Source of the DNA: Nitrososphaerales archaeon
GTDB lineage: Archaea; Thermoproteota; Nitrososphaeria; Nitrososphaerales; UBA213
Reading direction: 5' to 3'
Assembly: GCA_965197925.1 (NCBI GenBank)
Contig: CBDAOC010000020.1
Coordinates: 736,001 to 800,000 of the forward strand
DNA: 64,000 nt
This document shows, in pieces, positions 47,944 to 58,679 of the stretch. Each line of letters begins with the position of its first letter. Within the stretch, counting starts at the first letter, position 1. The notes beneath the pieces were generated by a model. That model did no database searches, was not told the DNA's origin, and was given only the letters and a program-made list of their open reading frames with translations. Position numbers and translations under genes: made by a program.

Positions 47944-49841
47944 TTACTCCATTGGCAAGGTAAAGTAGACGGCGGTACCGATCCCAATATCACTTTCAAC
48001 ATAAATCCTTCCATTATGACCATCCACAATTCCCTTACAAATAGCCAATCCTAGTCCGGAGCCTTCCTTTTTGCGTGTACTTGTATCTGCCTGATAGAAT
48101 TTTTTGAACAACCCTTCCTGCATACCTTTGGGAATTCCGACTCCATTATCCTTTACGCTAAATAATGCTTCATCCCCTACATCCTTAATTCCTACCTCAA
48201 TGATACCTTTCTGTTCTGGAACAAACCGGATGGCATTTTTGATCAAATTTGTTAAGACTTGACCTATTCTGTCGGGGTCACATTTTACCTTCATGGCTTT
48301 CTCAATCTGCGCATTCAGCTTCACTCCAATCCTATCAGCACTCGGCGTCATAATCTCTATAGCCTTGCTGATTAACTGATCAGCGTCGACGGTGACCACA
48401 TTAAACTTCAGTTGGCCCAGTTCAAGCCTCCTAGCATCGAGAAGATCCTGAATCAACTGTGAAAGTGAGAGGGAGCTCTGATACATAATTCTAATTTTTC
48501 CCAGTTGTTCCTCAGTTAAATCTCCCAACATACCATCCAGCAGGAGCTCACTGTAACCCTGAATAGGAACCAGGGGGTCTTTAGCTCATGCGTTATCATT
48601 GCCAGGAACTCATCTTTTGCTTTGTCAATCTCCTTGGACTGTTCAATCTTTTCCTTCATTGCACGAGATAAGAGATTGAAACTCTTTACCAAACTACCAA
48701 CCTCATCCTTGCTATTGTGTTGAATTTGAATTCCAATCTCACCTTTCTGTATACGCCTAGAGACATCCATCATTTTCGTGATGGGGGACAGGGATCTTCT
48801 AATGACAAGACCAACAGAAACGAATACGGATCCACTGGATATTGCCAGGGTGTAAAAGATCTGGTTGGAGAAATCATTTTTGGATATATTATCTTCTCGC
48901 ATCAAAGATATCAGATTTAAATGCAGTCCGATCAGTGGGTCCATGTTTGATTCCAGGAAATCCAAGGAATTCTGAAACTGTTCTGTGCGAACTCCCCCAT
49001 TTGAAACAACAAGCAAGTTCTCCTTTAATGGTACCCAACTTTCCTTTACTTCCTCCCAATCTCCTTGCAATTCCGTGGGAATAGGTCTCACATAGTTACC
49101 GGTGATATCAGACGTGCCTCCCTCCAACATAATCTCCAAATAAGAATCGAACTGGGTCACGAGACGTGACAATTCTAATGCCAATTCTTCCTGTTCAACA
49201 GCTCCAAAACGTTCGGTTGATTGTCCGGTAACCTCAAGGGTGTATGTAAGTAGACGGTGACCAAGCGCTTCCATTACCTTTGAGACTGCAACTTGTTCAA
49301 ATCCAAATTGTGTGAAACTGGGAAATGTTGTTGGCCTTACGTTGGCGAAGTCTCCAGCCAACCCTTCCAGTCTATGACTGGCCATCTCCACCTTACTAAT
49401 AAGATCATCACTGTTTTGAACCACATAATCTCTAGAATTAAGAAGTTCAAGATTGAAGACCTGTTTTTCGGCTACGACCAAAGAATTTTGCTTATAGTTA
49501 CTCCATCTATTCAAAACATTTTGATGTAGATCTGGAGACAAATGGGCTATTGAGTTGACCCTTGAACCATTCACAACTCCCCCTTTATCCAATAGATCGG
49601 AGGAAGTTTGGTACAAATCTACCAATTCTAAAATATCTTTTCTATTCTTAGATTCACCATCTGCCACCTGTAGTGAATGTTCTCTAATCTTCTGTACGAA
49701 AAATATTTGTTTATTGGCCAAATCGACAGTTATGGCGTCAGCCTGGCCCAGGTCATTGAAATAAGCAAGAACAGAAATATTAAGAATTACAATTCCCACT
49801 ATTGCACTGGTAATTAGCAGTATTTTTGATAATAATTTCAT
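47944..49841 (-). pseudogene. Membrane sensor histidine kinase (extracellular helical sensor, HAMP, HisKA, HATPase); -1 frameshift in a C-run near 48575
   Basis: Joined reading THELKTP/LVPIQGYSELLLDG; QVLTNLIKNA, DNGVGI, GSGLGLAI. Confidence 0.85.
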
Positions 49842-49998
49842 CTAGTCCTTACCCTTATCCCAAAAATTTTGGATGGATCATCAACATAAGGATTAGTATG
49901 TCTCTAAGAATTATAACTAGTCTTGATCTTGTTAACTCCTCATTCCGATAAATAGAAAATAAACCAAGTTTAAATCACTCATTTTGTTATCTCAAACA

Positions 49999-50395
49999 AT
50001 GAGAGAAAATGAGGATATCCAAAGGGAATTCAGAAAGGAGGTCACGGGGATATTGAGAACATTGCAGACCTCATGTGATATCTTAAGAGAAGGAATGGAT
50101 AACCAAGCAATAGCAGAAATTGTAAAATACTTTCATAAATTCAAAGGGGTTGCGGGAATGATGGATTATTCGCACATGTCGGAGCTGGCTGGAGAAATGG
50201 AATCAATCTCGAAACTTCTCATGGAATATAAGATCCGATTCCATGGAATATAAGATCCGATTCCAGCCAGAAATCGCATCTTTGCTAGCTGAGAGCACAA
50301 ATCTACTCCAAAAATATGTAGAAACGGATTTTGAGGAGAGGAATGAACCCATGCTTGAGGATTTAAGAAAGTTAGCAAACAATCCCATAAAATGA
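49999..50395 (+). pseudogene. Hpt-domain protein disrupted by a 22-bp tandem duplication
   Basis: FHKFKGVAGMM Hpt motif; ATGGAATATAAGATCCGATTCC present twice at 50221-50264. Confidence 0.8.
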
Positions 50396-50559: not shown

Positions 50560-51160
50560 GAATCGAAGCCATCGGATGGATTTGGTAATCATTGGATTGT
50601 GTTATATTAATTGGACTTGCGTTTGAACATGATCAAAAGGTAAAAACTAAACCTAGCTGTCCTAGTAAGAGGGATAACCACCATACGCAATCCAAAAATC
50701 CCATCAAGTCCTAATAAGCCCAGGCAAAGGCAAGTAAAAATTACCTATTAACTTCTCTGCTTGCCCTTTCGAATAGAGAATCTGTATCTTGTTCATGCTT
50801 TCTTTCGTTTTCTGAAAACTTTTCAAATCCCTTTCTGAATGTATCAACGATTTCTCTAAATTTTGATTGAATTGATTCTGTGCTCTAAACGTCGGTAGTA
50901 TATCTTTGATTTTTATCTTTAATTAATACAGTACAGAAGTAATTAGGATTTGATAGAATCTTTGTAGAAATAGAATCAACAACCTAAGGATATTTCTACA
51001 TCTTATTTATCGAATAAAATGAGTCAATTCGGCAAAAGCCGTTAAAGTATTAAATTGTATCTGCAGTAGGTCCAAAAAAAGGGATAAAAAGCAGGTTTTG
51101 CAAGAAATAAGGGCTTTAACCCCGTAATTTTCTTATGGAGCATGTTATTTATGGATGCAA

Positions 51161-51572
51161 ACACGTTATTTGCGTATCATTTTACGTTATTTTATGGGTT
51201 GTCACGTTATTAACGTGGAATTTTACGTTATTTTATGGGTTGTCACGTTATTAACGTGGAATTTTACGTTATCTATGTGTCCAATCACATTATTTAGAGC
51301 CAATTTACGTTATTTTATTTATAAAAACAGCATTTTTGGGGTTTAGACACGTTATTTACGTTATTTACGTTATTAACGTAATTTTACGTTATTTACGTTA
51401 TTTACGTTATTAACGTAATTTTACGTTAATTCTCTCGATTTTACACCTCGTATTTAGGTACGAATCTGACAAGCAAAAAATAACGGAAATAACGTAAAAT
51501 TACGTTAATAACGTAAATAACGTAAATAACGTAATTGAAAGGCAAATAACGTAAAAACATCAAAAATAACGG
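51161..51572. repeat. Convergent array of ACGTTA/TAACGT motifs with 41-bp and 37-bp tandem units and a perfect 45-bp inverted repeat
   Basis: About 24 exact hexamers counted by eye; 51384-51428 is the reverse complement of 51490-51534. Confidence 0.95.
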
Positions 51573-52236
51573 ATTATAATGAGTCGAGGAAGGCTTTTAC
51601 GAATGGATCTTGGGTTTGGCGCTTCATTTTATTGACCTTTGCAATACAATTAATGGTCGGGATGACATGAACTCACATTAATTCAACCTATATCACTAAA
51701 CTATAACCGTTCAACAAAAAGTTGATAGCCATAGACAATTTCACAATTTGAAACAATGAGGTTATTGTACTCCCAACCAGTAAAATAATGATTGTCCCAT
51801 TTGGTAATTTTCTTCAAGAATGATCCGTTACTCTCTTTTTCACCCTACTGCTCTATCTAAAATTTGCTGTACGAATCACATCCCAACACCTTCATATCTT
51901 TAGTGATGTGGTGAACAAATCCCAATAAGGGCAAAAGCAGTGTTTGGCGGTCAGCTGTTAATATCAGTGGTTCTATCAAAATACTTTTCGTCAGTGGATC
52001 CGAATTAGAGTACGCCACTTCTATATGCCCTCCTTATCTGAACACAACAAATATTATTTTATTACTGATCCAGTCACCACAGAGGTTATAGTGCAACTAA
52101 GATGGTCTCCTGTATATTTATTATGAACCCACACTTCCTTTGGTAAATTATATTGCTTTCCAAAGCCTGGATTAGTAAATATTGGGCCAGATTGATAGAT
52201 AACATTTATCTTTAGTTTCTTGTTAGTATTAGTTCG

Positions 52237-52584
52237 TTGATAACCGACCTTCAGCTCCTTATAGGAGGGATGGAGTGGATCATCATACTATTTTTTGGTC
52301 TATTTGTGATACTGGGCGGTAAAAGACTCCCCAAATTCACAAAGTCGATCGGCAAGGCGGTGGGTGAGTTCCAGAAGGCCAGAAATGAAATGGAGAAGGA
52401 AATAGCCAGAGTAAATAATCCCATGAAGATATCCGTTAACAATCCGGTGTCAAATGAGAGGGAGAAGCTTGAAGCAATTGCAAAGGCCTTACAGATCAAT
52501 ACGGTGGGTAAAACTGATAATGAATTGAGACAGCTGATCAGTAATAATGTAAATCCCAAGACTGATGAAAACGTTTCACTTTAG
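52237..52584 (+). CDS. tatA: Twin-arginine translocase TatA/E subunit
   Basis: GGMEWIII...LGGKRLPKFTKSIGKAVGEFQKA. Confidence 0.9.
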   Translation: MITDLQLLIGGMEWIIILFFGLFVILGGKRLPKFTKSIGKAVGEFQKARNEMEKEIARVNNPMKISVNNPVSNEREKLEAIAKALQINTVGKTDNELRQLISNNVNPKTDENVSL

Positions 52585-53210
52585 GTATAAGAAGAACAGA
52601 TTAATTTTGTAAAGTTAGTTTTGAGAGCCTGTTGTTCATCATTGTAAATAATTGGATCATTGTTGGGAGATCAAGAGTGAATGCCCATGAGTAGCAATTG
52701 GATGAACTATGTTATTGACGTTGAATAGAGTACAACAATTAGGTCTATTTCATTGTAATCATATTCAGAGAATATAACAAAATACAGGTTGATGATTTGG
52801 TTTTATCTAACTGTCAAGATATCGAAGATAATAATGAACCTAGAAAGTATTTCTTTCCATTTAGAGGAAAATTCCAGTTAGAGATTAAGAATACACATGA
52901 TAAATTACGTGATGTAATCAAATAGAAAATTCTGTCTATATCTAATACACCCACACCAAGATTTACATTGGTTCAACAACATATTTTGTTGATATTAGTG
53001 GAAAATGGCTTTCATTTGTCAAAGGGTAAAGAAGCAATTATGATTCGAAATTGGTGGTTTTCTAAAGAAAAGGAAGATTAAGTTAGAATATTTAGAACTA
53101 CAAAAATAGAAATTCTTCCACCTCGGTACGGAAATAAGACACTTATTTCCACACTACCGGTAGAAGGAAGGGAGATAATCGTCACGGCAAATATAGTCGA
53201 TGACGTAGGT

Positions 53211-54291
53211 GTGGAAAAAGTGGATCTCCTCTATATTATTCCCGAACACTATCGTGAGTTCCACGAAGTGGAGATGCAGAGGTATAACTCTGAATACTCC
53301 ATAGATTCTAACTACTTCATAGGTTCGATACCTGCGTCAGATGTTAGAACCGTTTGGCTCCAATACTGGATCTTGGCCCAAGACTTTGCCGGCAACAACA
53401 AACAATCCCCCTTGGAATATGTGAATGTTGAAAAAAGATCATCTGTAACTGAGGTGGTGACAAAGGAAAGGACCCTGCCCGATCATGTACTGGAGGCTAT
53501 CAATTCGATGCAGGACCCGACACCTGTTGGAATGCTTGAAGTCATATCCATGAGTGGTGGTAACGTAATCAAATCATATCAGGACAAAATAATGTTGAAG
53601 AATAGTGGCAACCTAACCTTGCAGAGTATTTGGCTGATGCTCTCACCAGGGCTGCACAAGAGCTTCAAGTTGAGCGATACCACGGTCGAGTCCATAGAAC
53701 CAGATGGCAACTTTACCTTATCCTTCGAACTGAATGGAAACCCTGCACGTGATATGATAGGCGGTTTGCTTGGATACCAAGGTGCTTTGATAGTAATGGC
53801 TGAGCATCACAACCCAATAGTCCTGCCAATAAATATTGGTAACCAGGAATCCAACTACTTGAAGAACTATATGGAGTCAGTGTCAGGTCTGGCAAAGCAG
53901 CGCTACAACAAGATATCATTGCTGAATGACCTGGTATCCCATGACACTGGAGAACAAGGATTTCGAAATAACGACTTTATCTGGAACGAGAGAGATAACA
54001 AGGTATGGTAGTGATGCACAATATGGTGCAACATTCACCTTCTTCGAATACCTAGAGAACAAGTATGGTAATGATATCATAGGAGAAATGGTCAACCAGC
54101 TAGGGAGTGGAATGATAACGAATCACAGATGTGATACCTTAGAAAACTGCGCTGTATTACAAGGTGCTTATGATGAGATTGGTTTGGATATCCAAGATGA
54201 GCGGTATCCACTTTCTGTAGAGAAATTGATCGAAGGATGGGAGGAATATGTAATGGACCTAGTCACTTTAAGCTCTAGTAGTGAGATTTAA
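53211..54291 (+). pseudogene. Fragmented large hypothetical (secreted-type) protein
   Basis: Two overlapping same-strand ORFs with a frameshift near 53940; Ig-like N-terminal part; YGATFTFFEYLENKYG segment. Confidence 0.5.
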
Positions 54292-54629
54292 GAAAGAAAT
54301 CATAGTGTAAATGCAATAGTATACTGGAACAATCCTACTATTCATAGTAATCATGTTAAGAGGTCCATATGAGAATACCCAACACTTCAAATCTTTCATC
54401 CTAAAGAACACTACGTCTAAATCCTGTGTAGAAAGTGCTCACCATACCAAAAGTCAATTGTGTACTGGAATGGTTCTTACCAATAAGTTAAGCTCTTTCA
54501 GAAAATGAATAGATTTTTCAGAAAATGTATAGGTGCCCTCGGTACTCAAGCCAATAACGGCACATCCCTTTTCTGTACTAAAATATTACATACATATCCT
54601 TATTCCAAACTAATTCCTAAAATGAGGAA

Positions 54630-55295
54630 ATGAATAGATTTGCACAACTGACTGTGATAATGGCTTTAGTAGGAGGATTGGCATTGGCCAATGCATCCAT
54701 GTTCAAGGATAGCTTTGCATACAGTGCATCAACAGATAAAGCTGTGTATGGACACTTTACACTTATCGTGAATGATGAGTTCGGAAATATACAGGACTAT
54801 ATGGAGTTTGATAACGTAATAACAGATGAAGGAGATGATTGTATAGCGGTACTTGCATTTGGTTCAACCCTTGGTGCTGGTGATTGTACAGAAGGAATTA
54901 TAGATGCAATTTCGGTAGCGGATTGTAGTGCGGATAATGTCTGCGCTGCGGTGGCAGATGTAACAACGGCATTTGATGATTCTGACAGTGTAAATATAGG
55001 GGATGAATGTGATACGGCTGGAGAGGTCACAAATGTTTACACACAAAGTTCAGGAGCCAACGGCATTAGACCAACGGCATTAGACCAACGGCATTAGACC
55101 AACGGCATTAGACCAACGGCAACATTCGACACCACTGAGACAGCAGACCCATTTACTGCAAGACAGGCAGGTATACTAAATGACTGTACAGACAGCGCAG
55201 CACCTGAGCTCTTTGCAATCCAGAACTTCTCAGATGTAACGATATCTGGTAGCGATACCTTGACAATCAACTACGATGTATCATTCTCAGGCTAA
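54630..55295 (+). pseudogene. Secreted acidic beta-rich protein truncated by an internal 14-bp VNTR
   Basis: Signal peptide; GHFTLIVNDEFGNI..DNVITDEG. After the VNTR the same frame resumes ATFD...AGILND...LFAIQNFSDVTISGSDTLTINYDVSFSG. Confidence 0.8.
55057..55121. repeat. VNTR (CCAACGGCATTAGA) x4 plus a 9-bp partial unit
   Basis: Perfect tandem units. Confidence 0.95.
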
Positions 55296-55375
55296 AGCTG
55301 GAACATAAGAATATTCAGGCCGAGTGTAAGACCAAGTCTGAATTTCTGATTTTTTATTCATTAGAATTTGTACAT

Positions 55376-56305
55376 TTAACCAGGTTTCTGTGCAATTACT
55401 TTGATGAAAAAATAATCATAACTGGTAGAAATAGACTTTACATCAAATCCAGCCCTTTTAATCAAATCCTTCATCGTCTTTGTTGAAAAGTGAAAAACAT
55501 GGTTCCAGAATAACATATTCCAGTCTCCCTTTAGTTGATCATATGTACGACAATCAATATGAAAAGTTTCTATCCGTATGATCCCACCTACACGCAAAAA
55601 CTTATGGGCTGTCATCAAGTCTTGGAGTGGATGATATGCATGCTCAATATAATCATTCATCTCCACAGCATTCAAATTATCTTCCTGAATAGGGCAATTG
55701 TCAAAAACATCGTTGAAAACATTTAGCCCATACCTCTGTTTCATAACCTTGCATGCATAGCCGTTTAGTTCATTTCCCGTAGCTTCTATTCCCCTTGCTT
55801 GTGCAGCACGAAGCAAAAATCCAACTCCACACCCAACGTCATGTATGCTCTCCATATTACCATCCAAGTAATTTTATATCTCATTTATGACACCGTCTTC
55901 TCTTTTCATCCTTTTCTCATACCAATCGGGGGGAACGAATTTAATATTGGAGGATAATGCCCTTCCATATTTCACCCTGTTCTCAGTAAACTCAATTTAC
56001 CTAGGCGTCTCACTCTTAAGATATTCCACCCAAGTTTCTTCCTTTATCCTCGGGCTGGTGTATTGTAGTCAACAATCACTACATTCTACAATATGACTAT
56101 AGTCCTTGGTAATCAATACTTCCTCTACGGAGTTGCTACCACACATTTCACAAGGCGGATACTCATCAAAAGGAGTGATTTTATCCTTCTCTTGATCCTT
56201 GATAGTATAATCCGGGGATATCAACCCAAATTTCTTTACAGTGTTCCAAAAGTAAAGACGGGGATATTGTGTGATGTAATCAGAAATCCTTTTATTTTTT
56301 TCCAT
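55376..56305 (-). pseudogene. Class I SAM methyltransferase with N-terminal Zn ribbon; three in-frame nonsense codons
   Basis: CEMCGS...ECSDC*LQYTSPR...PR*IEF...EI*NYL...HDVGCGVGFLL. Confidence 0.8.
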
Positions 56306-56849
56306 CCCACTTCCTTATAATCTTCGGTACATAAGTACGATTGATCTAATAAAATAATCGTGAATGTAGAATAACGATATATTGTCATGAGGTTCGTGAT
56401 GAATAGATTGACTTTGTCATAAAGACACTTATCTAGAAACAGCCAGTTACAATATTAATAAGAATGAAGGGTTATGACATTATTTATGTATACACAAGTT
56501 AGGTGCTTCAAGGACTTTATTCCTTTTAATCCCTTGATTGATCACCAAACTTTTTTTTGTTTTCCCTTGTTTAAATCTTAGTACCCCTCCGGACTTTCCA
56601 CTTTAGAATTTATTATTAATAGAATTATATGCTTGTAATGTAAGTTATCCTGTGGAAACAACGAAGAATTGATCTTAGACCAGTGCAATTGGTAAATAAC
56701 ATTCCCATATTCCTTTTGATCTTTTTCCTGCAATTACGTCACAAAATTGCATGAAATTTACCGTTGACCAATTTATTTACGCATACCCTATTTCTAATCA
56801 ATAATTGGAAAACAATAATTGGAAAATGAGAAAATAACTTCACAAAATA

Positions 56850-57990
56850 CTATCGCCTGTTGAAGGATTTAATAAAAATAATCGGTAATAGAAATCCAAT
56901 AAAGAACATTGCAATGAAGGAGGTGCTGTTACCAAAAAGATCTGCTGCAATACCTGCAATTGCCGGTCCCATCGTAAATCCTATTCCGAATATAGCTTCA
57001 TAAGTTCCAATAGTGGTTCCCACCAGATGCTCTGGTGTATGTCTGGTAACAACACTAAGCGTTATCGGGAAATATAGACTGAAAGCAAACCCAAGCATAA
57101 TGAGTGAAGAGGAAAATGATCCCAAATTGGTTATAGCGTAAGCAATGAGCATTGCAAATGCTATTACCTCAGTCGCTAGAAATATGCAGGTCTTTTCGTA
57201 TCTAGCAAATCTATGAGTAAATGGGGGGGTGAATAGTCTAGATAAGCCGAATATGAAGAAAAGTATACCAATCGAAAACTCATTGATGGTGTTATCCTTG
57301 AGATAGGCTGGGAATACTGAAAGGACTATACCGAATGCTGCGCTGTAATACATCACTAAAGTGCTTAACTTTGGATTCGATCTTATCACATTAAAAACTG
57401 CTTTTGGAGAATATTTTTCTACATATCCACCTCCTCTTCCATGCTTTCAGCAAAAGTGATACCGCTAACTACCCGATCATTATTGCAGCAGAGAATTCGA
57501 AGAGGAGTCTAAACCCAAGTTCTTCAAAAAGAAATGCACCCATCAAAGGTCCGATCATATATCCCCCGACCCATGCCATTGTAAATCTAGAAACTGAATG
57601 GATTCTTTTCTCCACTGGAGCTACAGTAGTGACTATTGCAACGGTCGATGGTCAGAAAAATGCATGTGCAATACCTGAAAGTGCTCTAATCATCATTACA
57701 TCAAGGACACTGTTGGTAAATGACAGCATAAACAAGGAGAACGTGGTCATACCAATTCCAACGGTTAGAATCGAAGCTTTGTTGAACCTGTCAAGAAGTA
57801 ATCCTACAAACATTGGTGCGAACATATAGGGCACAAAATTTGCCATTCCAATGAGTCCAATATCGAAATAACTTGCAGCAAGCTCCTGTATTGCAAATAC
57901 CTGAACCAGAGGAACATGAGCTCCATATGCCATCCCAATTATGCAAGCCTGAACATAGACAAGTAGGAGAATGCGTGCCATGATGAACAC
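56850..57990 (-). pseudogene. MFS transporter with two nonsense codons and a frameshift
   Basis: GLLLDRFNK, RALSGIAHAFF*PS (TGG>TGA), IMIG*LAVS, GTYEAIFGIGFTMGP. Confidence 0.8.
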
Positions 57991-58679
57991 TACTTGGAAG
58001 CGGCAATTATTACAGCGCCACCACTCATCCTAGTTTCAAACTTTACTTTGGTGAATTTCTCACTCAGCATTCTCTTGAGTTCAAAGTTTCTCGGTAATCT
58101 TTTGTAAGTTCCGTAAATAGCCCTGAACTTCAATCCCATGCTACCTGCAGCGAAGAATGCTAATACACTCATTATATATTTCAGGTAAAATGATATAGCT
58201 ATTCTATTAAATGCATTATCGGGTTTTCCAATATCAACTATTATTAATTTGCCGCGAGGCCGCAAAACCCTGTGAAATTCTGAGATGGCAATACTCATCA
58301 TTAATGCATCCCTAAATGAATAACCGCACATAACAGCATCAAATGTACCGTTATTAAATGGAAGAAATTCAAACACCCCCGTTATCAAAATCCTTTTCTT
58401 ATAAAATTCAGTTTTTGCTTTGGCCAACATTTCTGGAATAGGATCGAGCATTACTATGTACAAATCATCATTGCATTGATGTAATGCCTCTTTCGACATG
58501 TTGCCGTATCCAGAACCTGCATCAAGAACTAAATTGCCCTGCTTGATTCTGTTAAGGAGGCCAATCTTTCTATACTCTGCGTCTTTACCGAATGATATTA
58601 CGCGGTTTACCTGATCATATACGGGTATTACAGTTCTAAGAACATCTATGATCTCATGCCAGTAGCTTCCTAATCCCAA
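57990..58679 (-). CDS. UbiE/MenG-family methyltransferase
   Basis: YDQVNRVISFG, VLDAGSGYG, LPF..TFDAV, EFHRVLRPRG. Confidence 0.85.
   Translation of the reverse strand: MGLGSYWHEIIDVLRTVIPVYDQVNRVISFGKDAEYRKIGLLNRIKQGNLVLDAGSGYGNMSKEALHQCNDDLYIVMLDPIPEMLAKAKTEFYKKRILITGVFEFLPFNNGTFDAVMCGYSFRDALMMSIAISEFHRVLRPRGKLIIVDIGKPDNAFNRIAISFYLKYIMSVLAFFAAGSMGLKFRAIYGTYKRLPRNFELKRMLSEKFTKVKFETRMSGGAVIIAASK

What the first reader, a model, noticed from the sequence alone, without database searches (positions are those of the whole stretch)
51161..51572. Convergent ACGTTA iteron array around a 61-bp spacer: candidate centromere-like or origin-like cis element
Seen: in a ~1.8-kb gap without credible genes (between Hpt and tatA), about 24 exact ACGTTA/TAACGT hexamers occur in ~410 bp. 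Left of ~51430 they are mostly forward, often as 9-bp TTACGTTAT tandems; right of ~51480 they are mostly reversed. 51384-51428 and 51490-51534 form a perfect 45-bp inverted repeat. The spacer centre holds a second mini-palindrome, TCGTA-TTTAGG-TACGA (51448-51463). Higher-order 41-bp and 37-bp tandem units are present, with degenerate copies at the margins. Known: two iteron blocks flanking a spacer is the architecture of plasmid centromeres (R1 parC, omega heptads) and iteron origins. The motif does not look like the archaeal ORB box, and no cdc6/par gene is in the window. Inference: a polar, cooperative protein-loading site (segregation, replication initiation/termination or site-specific recombination), possibly cruciform-forming or ACGT-methylation-sensitive. 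I do not recognise it as a described element.
Basis: partly seen in the sequence, partly recalled or inferred. Interest (0 to 1): 0.82.

Follow-up and report, generated by a model that had tools for sequence, protein, structure and literature searches.

The report
Orphan mobile-element replication-origin relics
The repeat array is real and is most likely the leftover replication origin of a vanished plasmid- or virus-like element, one of five decayed copies in this archaeal genome, built to a design already known from bacterial pathogenicity islands and seen here at the ends of helicase genes in related archaea.

Summary
The array is real: 24 ACGTTA/TAACGT words, 14 of 18 forward left and 5 of 6 reversed right of a 61-bp spacer. 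It is not unique. Four diverged paralogues lie elsewhere in the genome, two with a different repeat word. In four of the five copies the array starts at the stop codon of a shared decayed coding tail (…FVKAFLDSL*, 19 synonymous versus 3 non-synonymous differences). Words repeat at 9 bp near the spacer and 20-21 bp further out, and are better conserved than linkers. The perfect 45-bp hairpin and the mini-palindrome occur only in this copy.

The layout matches SaPI/PICI-type origins. A strict 9-bp convergent motif marks 10 of 27 helicase gene ends in this archaeal order, 0 of 54 in-gene controls and 8 of 4468 genome tiles. This scan's earlier notes found the same design on other DNA and gave me that lead.

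Against a host origin or centromere: ORB-like boxes sit beside cdc6 330 kb away, there is no skew inflection, and no homologue was found in 400 relatives. The initiator gene was not identified. Verdict: orphan origin relic (~0.6), probably inactive.

The parts
51574..51645 (-). Decayed 3' end of an unidentified gene (…KMKRQTQDPFVKAFLDSL*); its stop codon abuts the first repeat. Shared by copies W, B, D, E.
   Evidence: 30-nt tail, frame 0 has 19 synonymous and 3 non-synonymous pairwise differences; the other five frames are mostly non-synonymous..
51478..51572 (-). Stop-proximal iteron arm: words at +2, 22, 42, 51, 60, 79, 88 after the stop codon
51429..51489 (.). Central spacer, 34% G+C, with a core (51450-51478) conserved in copies W, B, C, E; presumed melting or loading site
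   Evidence: function inferred
51448..51463 (.). 5-bp mini-palindrome, present only in this copy
51349..51428 (+). Spacer-proximal arm on the far side: 9-bp tandem words, enlarged by a copy-specific 37-bp duplication
51142..51315 (+). Distal arm: words every 20-21 bp (two helical turns) with divergent linkers; includes a perfect 41-bp duplication at 51179-51272
51384..51428 (+). Left arm of the perfect 45-bp inverted repeat (largely an insertion relative to copies B and C)
51490..51534 (-). Right arm of the perfect 45-bp inverted repeat

Best explanation
The array is the orphaned replication origin of a family of mobile replicons (integrated plasmids or satellite-like elements), now scattered as five decayed copies. 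In the active element an element-encoded initiator, most likely an initiator-helicase with a winged-helix domain, bound the GTTAY words cooperatively on both sides of the spacer. Two oppositely oriented complexes then opened the spacer and started replication, and the 20-21-bp phased distal arm added same-face sites for recruitment or copy-number control. The gene directly upstream was probably that initiator; only its last 20-50 codons survive. Insertion sequences and deletions later copied and trimmed the remnants, and local slippage and template switching produced this copy's perfect hairpin and tandem units. SHOWN: paralogues, polarity, phasing, word conservation, coding tail, shared design with helicase-gene ends. 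INFERRED: protein binding, melting, identity of the gene, present inactivity, the mutational route to the hairpin.
For: (a) Five colinear copies: W (window), B C20:117370-117960, C C18:129690-130110, D C20:970060-970330 (partial), E C19:399380-399800. D and E carry a TGTCAY-type word in the same positions, as expected for element-specific iterons. (b) Array begins at the stop codon of a tail under past purifying selection. (c) Words phased at about 10.1-10.2 bp: B R=0.90, p=0.0002; C R=0.83, p=0.001. Only W, B, C and one minisatellite pass a genome-wide phased-word scan. (d) With word positions defined from the held-out copy, words are 85/88/98% identical and linkers 74/68/76% (Fisher p 0.08, 0.002, 0.0008). 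(e) A pentamer pair at 9 bp facing its reverse-complement pair occurs at 10 of 27 P4-type helicase gene ends in this order, 0 of 54 in-gene controls and 8 of 4468 tiles of this genome, two of which are W and B. Two of those origins use GTTAC with 61- and 58-bp gaps (L219, same family; L221), one uses GTCAC (L216); L234 shows 20/42/9-bp spacing. (f) SaPI origins are 6-12 penta- or hexamer iterons immediately downstream of rep, pointing in opposite directions around a central region (PMC9371898, passages). (g) Mobile context: B and E share one junction with a truncated transposase gene, D lies between inverted IS ends, W and C lie at lineage-specific synteny breaks.
Against: The initiator was not found. 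The tail has no significant match in any database searched, nor to 147 P4-type helicases (score within shuffles). The genome has no TIGR01613 or Prim-Pol match, and no helicase remnant lies in the flanks. The spacer is not A+T-rich relative to its arms (34% G+C against 25-28%), though the long helicase-linked spacers were 23-36%. In W all words together are not significantly phased (R=0.51, p=0.1). C passes the strict 9-bp test only with 4-mers; D and E fail. The strict test was defined after an exploratory look. The three word-versus-linker tests are not independent. 17 of 27 helicase ends lack the strict motif, and only 1 of 27 shows a 20-21-bp run. W has 24 words, above the 6-12 of SaPIs.
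Confidence: 0.6

Rival explanations
1. Relic of another cis-site of a mobile element: a plasmid centromere bound by a small ribbon-helix-helix or winged-helix protein, or the arm-type sites of a recombination or transposon-end complex around a conserved core.
For: Short words in direct and inverted orientation, including the dyad CGTTAWTAACG (10 of its 11 genomic copies lie in these elements), recall omega-type centromeres (resemblance recalled, not tested). The sopC centromere lies downstream of its genes (PMC9178275, passages). The spacer core is conserved in four copies.
Against: No ParA-type, integrase or casposase gene lies beside any copy. The spacer has no conserved dyad. The tail folded only as one C-terminal helix (pLDDT 53, low confidence). 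The 9-bp convergent design is tied to helicase gene ends in this order.
Confidence: 0.17
2. Neutral satellite: an old low-complexity repeat amplified by slippage and template switching and carried around by insertion sequences, never a binding array.
For: The genome has 217 tandem arrays and 70 near-perfect two-copy duplications. The perfect hairpin and the 37- and 41-bp units are private to W. No homologue was found in relatives or public collections.
Against: Words are conserved over linkers, phased at whole helical turns, and switch polarity at a conserved spacer. Only W, B and one coding repeat pass a genome-wide convergent scan for any hexamer. The array starts exactly at a stop codon in four copies. 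This rival does explain the recent, copy-specific embellishments.
Confidence: 0.1
3. A working host element: a chromosomal centromere-like site or secondary origin in this lineage, bound by a host protein.
For: Words stay more conserved than linkers, which could reflect ongoing selection. The copies are spread over the three largest contigs.
Against: ORB-like boxes lie upstream of a cdc6 gene at C20:458250-458315. No skew extremum at the array (weak, as the genome is rearranged). Not found in 8 of 8 same-family genomes or 400 order genomes. The copies are truncated and use two different words.
Confidence: 0.08
4. A structured non-coding RNA or a DNA cruciform selected for its hairpin.
For: 51340-51580 folds at -83.5 kcal/mol, z = -11.6. 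RNA run X12 has two contigs of 71 and 98 nt on the distal arm at depth about 2.
Against: The long stem comes from a copy-specific insertion. No Rfam match. The RNA contigs are tiny, could be DNA, and miss the hairpin.
Confidence: 0.05

Closest known systems
SaPI/PICI replication origin with self-loading Rep or PriRep helicase (Staphylococcus aureus; PMC9371898, passages read)
   Same: Short iterons immediately downstream of a gene's stop codon, on both sides of a central region, pointing in opposite directions; word differs between family members.
   Different: No rep gene is left or identified. 24 words in W rather than 6-12. A long 20-21-bp phased distal arm. Spacer not more A+T-rich than the arms. 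Five orphan chromosomal copies.
Origins at the 3' ends of P4-type (TIGR01613) primase-helicase genes in integrated elements of this archaeal order (found here; such proteins in thaumarchaeal elements are reported in PMC6563490, passages)
   Same: 9-bp-period pentamer pairs facing each other across a 16-95-bp gap; words GTTAC and GTCAC close to the two words of this family.
   Different: No DNA similarity (best E 1.2). The tail does not match these helicases. Their arrays are smaller, 2-5 words a side.
pRN1 origin of Sulfolobus (PMC4234260, abstract and passages) and predicted origins of pTN2/pT26-2 (PMC2926602, passages)
   Same: Origin or repeat-rich intergenic region beside the replication gene; in pRN1 a stem-loop starting 54 bp downstream of orf904.
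   Different: pRN1 needs a conserved stem-loop; here the long stem is private to one copy and the words are the conserved part.
Iteron origins of theta plasmids (RK2, R6K; PMC4980987, two passages)
   Same: Cooperative binding that depends on helical phasing of repeats.
   Different: Those iterons are longer direct repeats on one side of the unwinding element (recalled); here they are short and convergent.
Archaeal and plasmid centromeres: SegB S1/S2, pNOB8 AspA site, sopC (PMC9178275, passages)
   Same: Repeated short sites that could build a protein superstructure.
   Different: No partition ATPase or centromere-binding gene beside any copy.

Membership tests
SaPI/PICI-type Rep-iteron origin | At least two penta/hexamer iterons each side of a central region, in opposite directions | tested here: met
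   (W and B strictly; C with 4-mers; D and E not)
SaPI/PICI-type Rep-iteron origin | Located immediately downstream of a gene's reading frame | tested here: met
   first word 2 nt after the stop codon; same junction in B, D, E
SaPI/PICI-type Rep-iteron origin | That gene encodes an SF3 or MCM-like helicase with a C-terminal winged-helix domain | tested here: inconclusive
   Only 20-50 codons remain; no match above shuffles to 147 P4-type helicases; MCM/Cch-type not tested
SaPI/PICI-type Rep-iteron origin | A+T-rich centre | tested here: inconclusive
   34% G+C: below the window (38%), above the arms (25-28%); within the 23-36% of long helicase-linked spacers
SaPI/PICI-type Rep-iteron origin | Inside an integrated island with integrase and primase | tested here: not met
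   Neighbours are host genes and IS debris; integrases lie elsewhere; no Prim-Pol. It is filed as working like this family, not as a member.
SaPI/PICI-type Rep-iteron origin | Bound and melted by the cognate Rep | not testable with these tools
   Needs protein and bench assay
Archaeal chromosomal origin (Orc1/Cdc6-ORB) | ORB boxes and an adjacent cdc6 gene | tested here: not met
   cdc6 with ORB-like boxes lies at C20:457-458 kb; ORB consensus recalled
Archaeal chromosomal origin (Orc1/Cdc6-ORB) | Skew inflection; conserved in relatives | tested here: not met
   skew is weak in this rearranged genome
Plasmid or chromosomal centromere (parS/parC/SegAB/AspA) | Adjacent partition NTPase and centromere-binding genes | tested here: not met
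   nearest AAA_31 match about 60 kb away; ParM and TubZ families not searched
CRISPR array / Rfam RNA | Constant repeat with unique spacers; covariance-model match | tested here: not met
Non-autonomous transposon (MITE/foldback) | Terminal inverted repeats and target-site duplication bounding all copies | tested here: inconclusive
   Shared homology runs past one arm into a coding tail and ends differ among copies; target-site duplications not examined

The most novel reading that the evidence does not exclude
The copies are not dead. They are origin-only, non-autonomous replicons or host-domesticated loading sites still served in trans by an unrecognised initiator family, giving this IS-rich archaeon conditional extra origins or chromosome-organising sites with two word specificities.
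Probability: 0.1. Interest if true: 0.75.

Novelty: new variant of a known kind. Interest (0 to 1): 0.38.

Why it matters
If the best reading holds, it is a fossil of an unsampled family of archaeal mobile replicons with an unidentified initiator and an unusually long phased arm. It also shows that SaPI-type convergent 9-bp origins are common at helicase gene ends in Nitrososphaerales-type archaea (10 of 27 here). I did not find that described in seven literature searches (open-access library only). Such origin-plus-helicase modules are candidate replicons for a group that, to my knowledge, lacks plasmid vectors (recalled). This locus itself is probably inactive and says little about host segregation.

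Tried and rejected
DNA homologues. Window array: 0 of 40 relatives. Copy B: 2 of 400 order genomes, both short matches inside coding sequence (only 2 candidates per genome were scored). Core pattern: 1 of 300 class genomes, a 2-mismatch hit without arrays; 0 in viral and genome contigs. Tail patterns: 0 in metagenome and viral contigs. Arm pattern: 1 metagenome hit in an Asn-Gly coding repeat, 0 in genome contigs. Triple-word pattern: 0 of 300 order genomes; at least 118 viral stretches, of which 80 were examined and none matched the element profile beyond the words. Plasmids and phages: none.

Tail identity. Order-wide searches gave only chance-level hits (riboflavin synthase strand; 2 of 400 at E about 0.005, not showing the element profile). 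The 1.84-billion-protein search returned the genome's own ORF and one unrelated repeat protein. Word-indexed searches, Atlas, PHROGs, Pfam, PDB, plasmids and phages were negative. An eye-level likeness to the end of the SF3 ATPase domain was not better than shuffles. A likeness to the C-terminus of the C15:64837-65919 protein was not supported; the three-row alignment was mis-built (two wrong rows), so that test counts only as inconclusive. A ribbon-helix-helix idea got no support from a low-confidence model; no fold search was run on it.

Other. Weak hits to decayed integrase fragments were taken as chance. The 10 candidate spacers recovered did not match the elements. No skew association. 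No promoter excess. RNA run X12 is too thin to show transcription; run X10 covered only the array and 51596-51746, but holes in filtered contigs prove nothing. Covariation counting was not completed. The primary SaPI origin paper PMC3804134 was not held. No supplements were read; those of PMC6563490 and PMC2926602 may describe origin repeats.

Full report
Observation. The window is G000:C20:736001-800000. The array is as described: 24 exact hexamers at 51163-51552, 14 of 18 forward on the left and 5 of 6 reversed on the right, a perfect 45-bp inverted repeat around 61 bp, and perfect 41- and 37-bp tandem units. The expectation from the genome-wide rate is 0.11. Contigs of two public runs match the flanks and most of the arms and break where the repeats predict. 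None spans the array, and this copy's own spacer letter at 51461 was not covered. A helicase of a same-family genome is named by NCBI as from a Candidatus Nitrosomirales archaeon, so the host is probably of that lineage (inference).

It is one of a family. Four more copies align colinearly: B (C20:117370-117960), C (C18:129690-130110), E (C19:399380-399800) and a partial D (C20:970060-970330), 66-89% identical in aligned parts. A profile of the five found no further copy. The spacer core is conserved in W, B, C and E. W, B and C use ACGTTAT; D and E mostly have a TGTCAY-type word at the same positions. The perfect hairpin, the 37-bp duplication and the mini-palindrome are private to W. The genome has 217 tandem arrays and 70 near-perfect two-copy duplications, so such embellishments are background. 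Template switching as the source of the hairpin is my inference.

Signs of a protein-binding array. Polarity flips at the spacer in W, B and C. Words recur at 9-10 bp near the spacer and 20-21 bp further out. Helical phasing is significant in B (R=0.90, p=0.0002) and C (0.83, p=0.001) but not in W (0.51, p=0.1), where the extra 9-bp tandems blur it. With word positions taken from the held-out copy, words are 62/73, 53/60 and 41/42 identical against 101/136, 101/149 and 127/167 for linkers (p=0.08, 0.002, 0.0008; not independent). Genome-wide scans for any hexamer return only W, B and one coding repeat as convergent arrays, and only W, B, C and one minisatellite as phased arrays with divergent linkers.

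A gene ended here. In W, B, D and E the array begins right after the TAA of a shared tail reading FVKAFLD(S/L)L. Over these 30 nt that frame has 19 synonymous and 3 non-synonymous pairwise differences, while the other frames range from 1:21 to 9:14. I chose this stretch after seeing it. Homology extends only 20-50 codons upstream. No search identified the protein.

Context. All copies sit among ordinary host genes and IS debris. B and E share one junction to a truncated transposase gene, so that stretch has a common origin. D lies between inverted IS ends. In three same-family genomes tatA follows the methyltransferase/MFS genes; here it is inverted with a breakpoint in this gap. YjeF lies next to translin in two of seven relative loci, one gene away in a third, whereas here helicases, an IS and copy C intervene. 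No cdc6, ParA-like, integrase, PolB or cas1 gene is adjacent to a copy. ORB-like boxes lie upstream of cdc6 at C20:458 kb (consensus recalled). There is no skew extremum at 787 kb. No homologue was found in 40 relatives, 300-400 order or class genomes, or the viral, metagenome, genome, plasmid and phage collections.

The design is known. Before my best guess was already a relic origin of a mobile element. Earlier notes of this scan (AI notes, leads only) pointed to SaPI/PICI-type origins. PMC9371898 (passages) states that 6-12 penta- or hexanucleotide iterons lie immediately downstream of rep, half on each side of an A+T-rich centre, in opposite directions, bound by the helicase's winged-helix domain, with two hexamers loading. 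I tested whether this order uses that design. TIGR01613 matched 36 of 161 genomes, and not G000; 30 of the 46 matches were fetched as loci. Three loci were dropped (split gene, contig end, longest frame not the helicase). A pentamer pair at exactly 9 bp facing its reverse-complement pair occurs within -250 to +400 of the stop in 10 of 27, against 0 of 54 windows inside the genes and 8 of 4468 tiles of G000, two of which are W and B (criterion set after the exploratory). L219, from the same family, and L221 use GTTAC with gaps of 61 and 58 bp; L216 uses GTCAC; L234 has 20/42/9-bp spacings. These are the two word classes and both spacings of this family. There is no direct sequence homology, and the tail does not match 147 such helicases above shuffled controls.

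Mechanism and confidence. Best reading (0.6): the orphaned origin of a mobile replicon whose initiator gene ended at the array; the initiator loaded from both sides and opened the spacer, and the phased distal arm added same-face sites. Dependence of iteron cooperativity on helical phase is described in PMC4980987 (two passages). An origin 3' of the replication gene also holds for pRN1 (PMC4234260, abstract and passages), and repeat-rich predicted origins adjoin rep genes of Thermococcus plasmids (PMC2926602, passages). Thaumarchaeal integrated elements encode primase-SF3 helicase, MCM, Cch-like and wHTH replication proteins (PMC6563490, passages). Rivals: another mobile-element site such as a centromere or recombination site (0.17), neutral satellite (0.10), working host element (0.08), structured RNA or cruciform (0.05). 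It works like a SaPI-type origin; it is not filed as a member, because the island context is absent and the initiator is unknown.

Novelty. A new variant of a known kind: larger, phased, orphaned and multi-copy. Seven literature searches (listings seen, six papers read in passages, no supplements) showed no description of this element or of these thaumarchaeal 9-bp origins; the library omits most subscription papers. Interest 0.38.

Noticed in passing
L205-L234 (helicase loci of G-handle genomes): Convergent pentamer arrays at 9-bp period at the 3' ends of 10 of 27 P4-type helicase genes; in several the words lie inside the reading frame and translate as VTS/VTK/DSQ repeats.
   Followed up: partly
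G000 C15:68820-68920; C16:6880-6990 and about 76700; C1:34180-34270: Small 2+2 convergent 9-bp modules in this genome with other words. The C15 one lies at the 3' end of an unknown 202-codon frame, beside an RHH-like gene; the C16 ones are framed by a further inverted repeat.
   Followed up: partly
G000 C20:458250-458315: Two ORB-like boxes upstream of a cdc6 gene: candidate chromosomal origin. A 9-mer there, TTTTACACC, also occurs in the spacers of W and C; unexplained, possibly chance.
   Followed up: no
window 49984-50395: Hpt gene frameshifted by a perfect 22-bp tandem duplication at 50220-50263.
   Followed up: no
window 47944-49841: Sensor histidine kinase split into two frames, HAMP part and HATPase part.
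   Followed up: no
window 52237-58679: tatA is inverted relative to the methyltransferase-MFS-tatA order of three same-family genomes; one breakpoint falls in the gap holding the array.
   Followed up: partly
G000 whole genome: About 100 copies of one DDE transposase family and 217 tandem arrays, many perfect and non-coding, up to about 900 bp.
   Followed up: no
G000 C20:969395-970507: A 1.1-kb piece holding copy D between inverted ends of an IS, with a 19-bp unit amplified in both ends.
   Followed up: partly
G000 C15:64837-65919 and C20:12795-12986: An uncharacterised 305-aa mobile-element-like protein and a decayed second copy; weak relatives in G002 and G091.
   Followed up: partly
G000 C20:267500-268160 and C20:51260-51660: Two decayed integrase-like fragments, one beside a tRNA-like sequence (identification by eye).
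   Followed up: no
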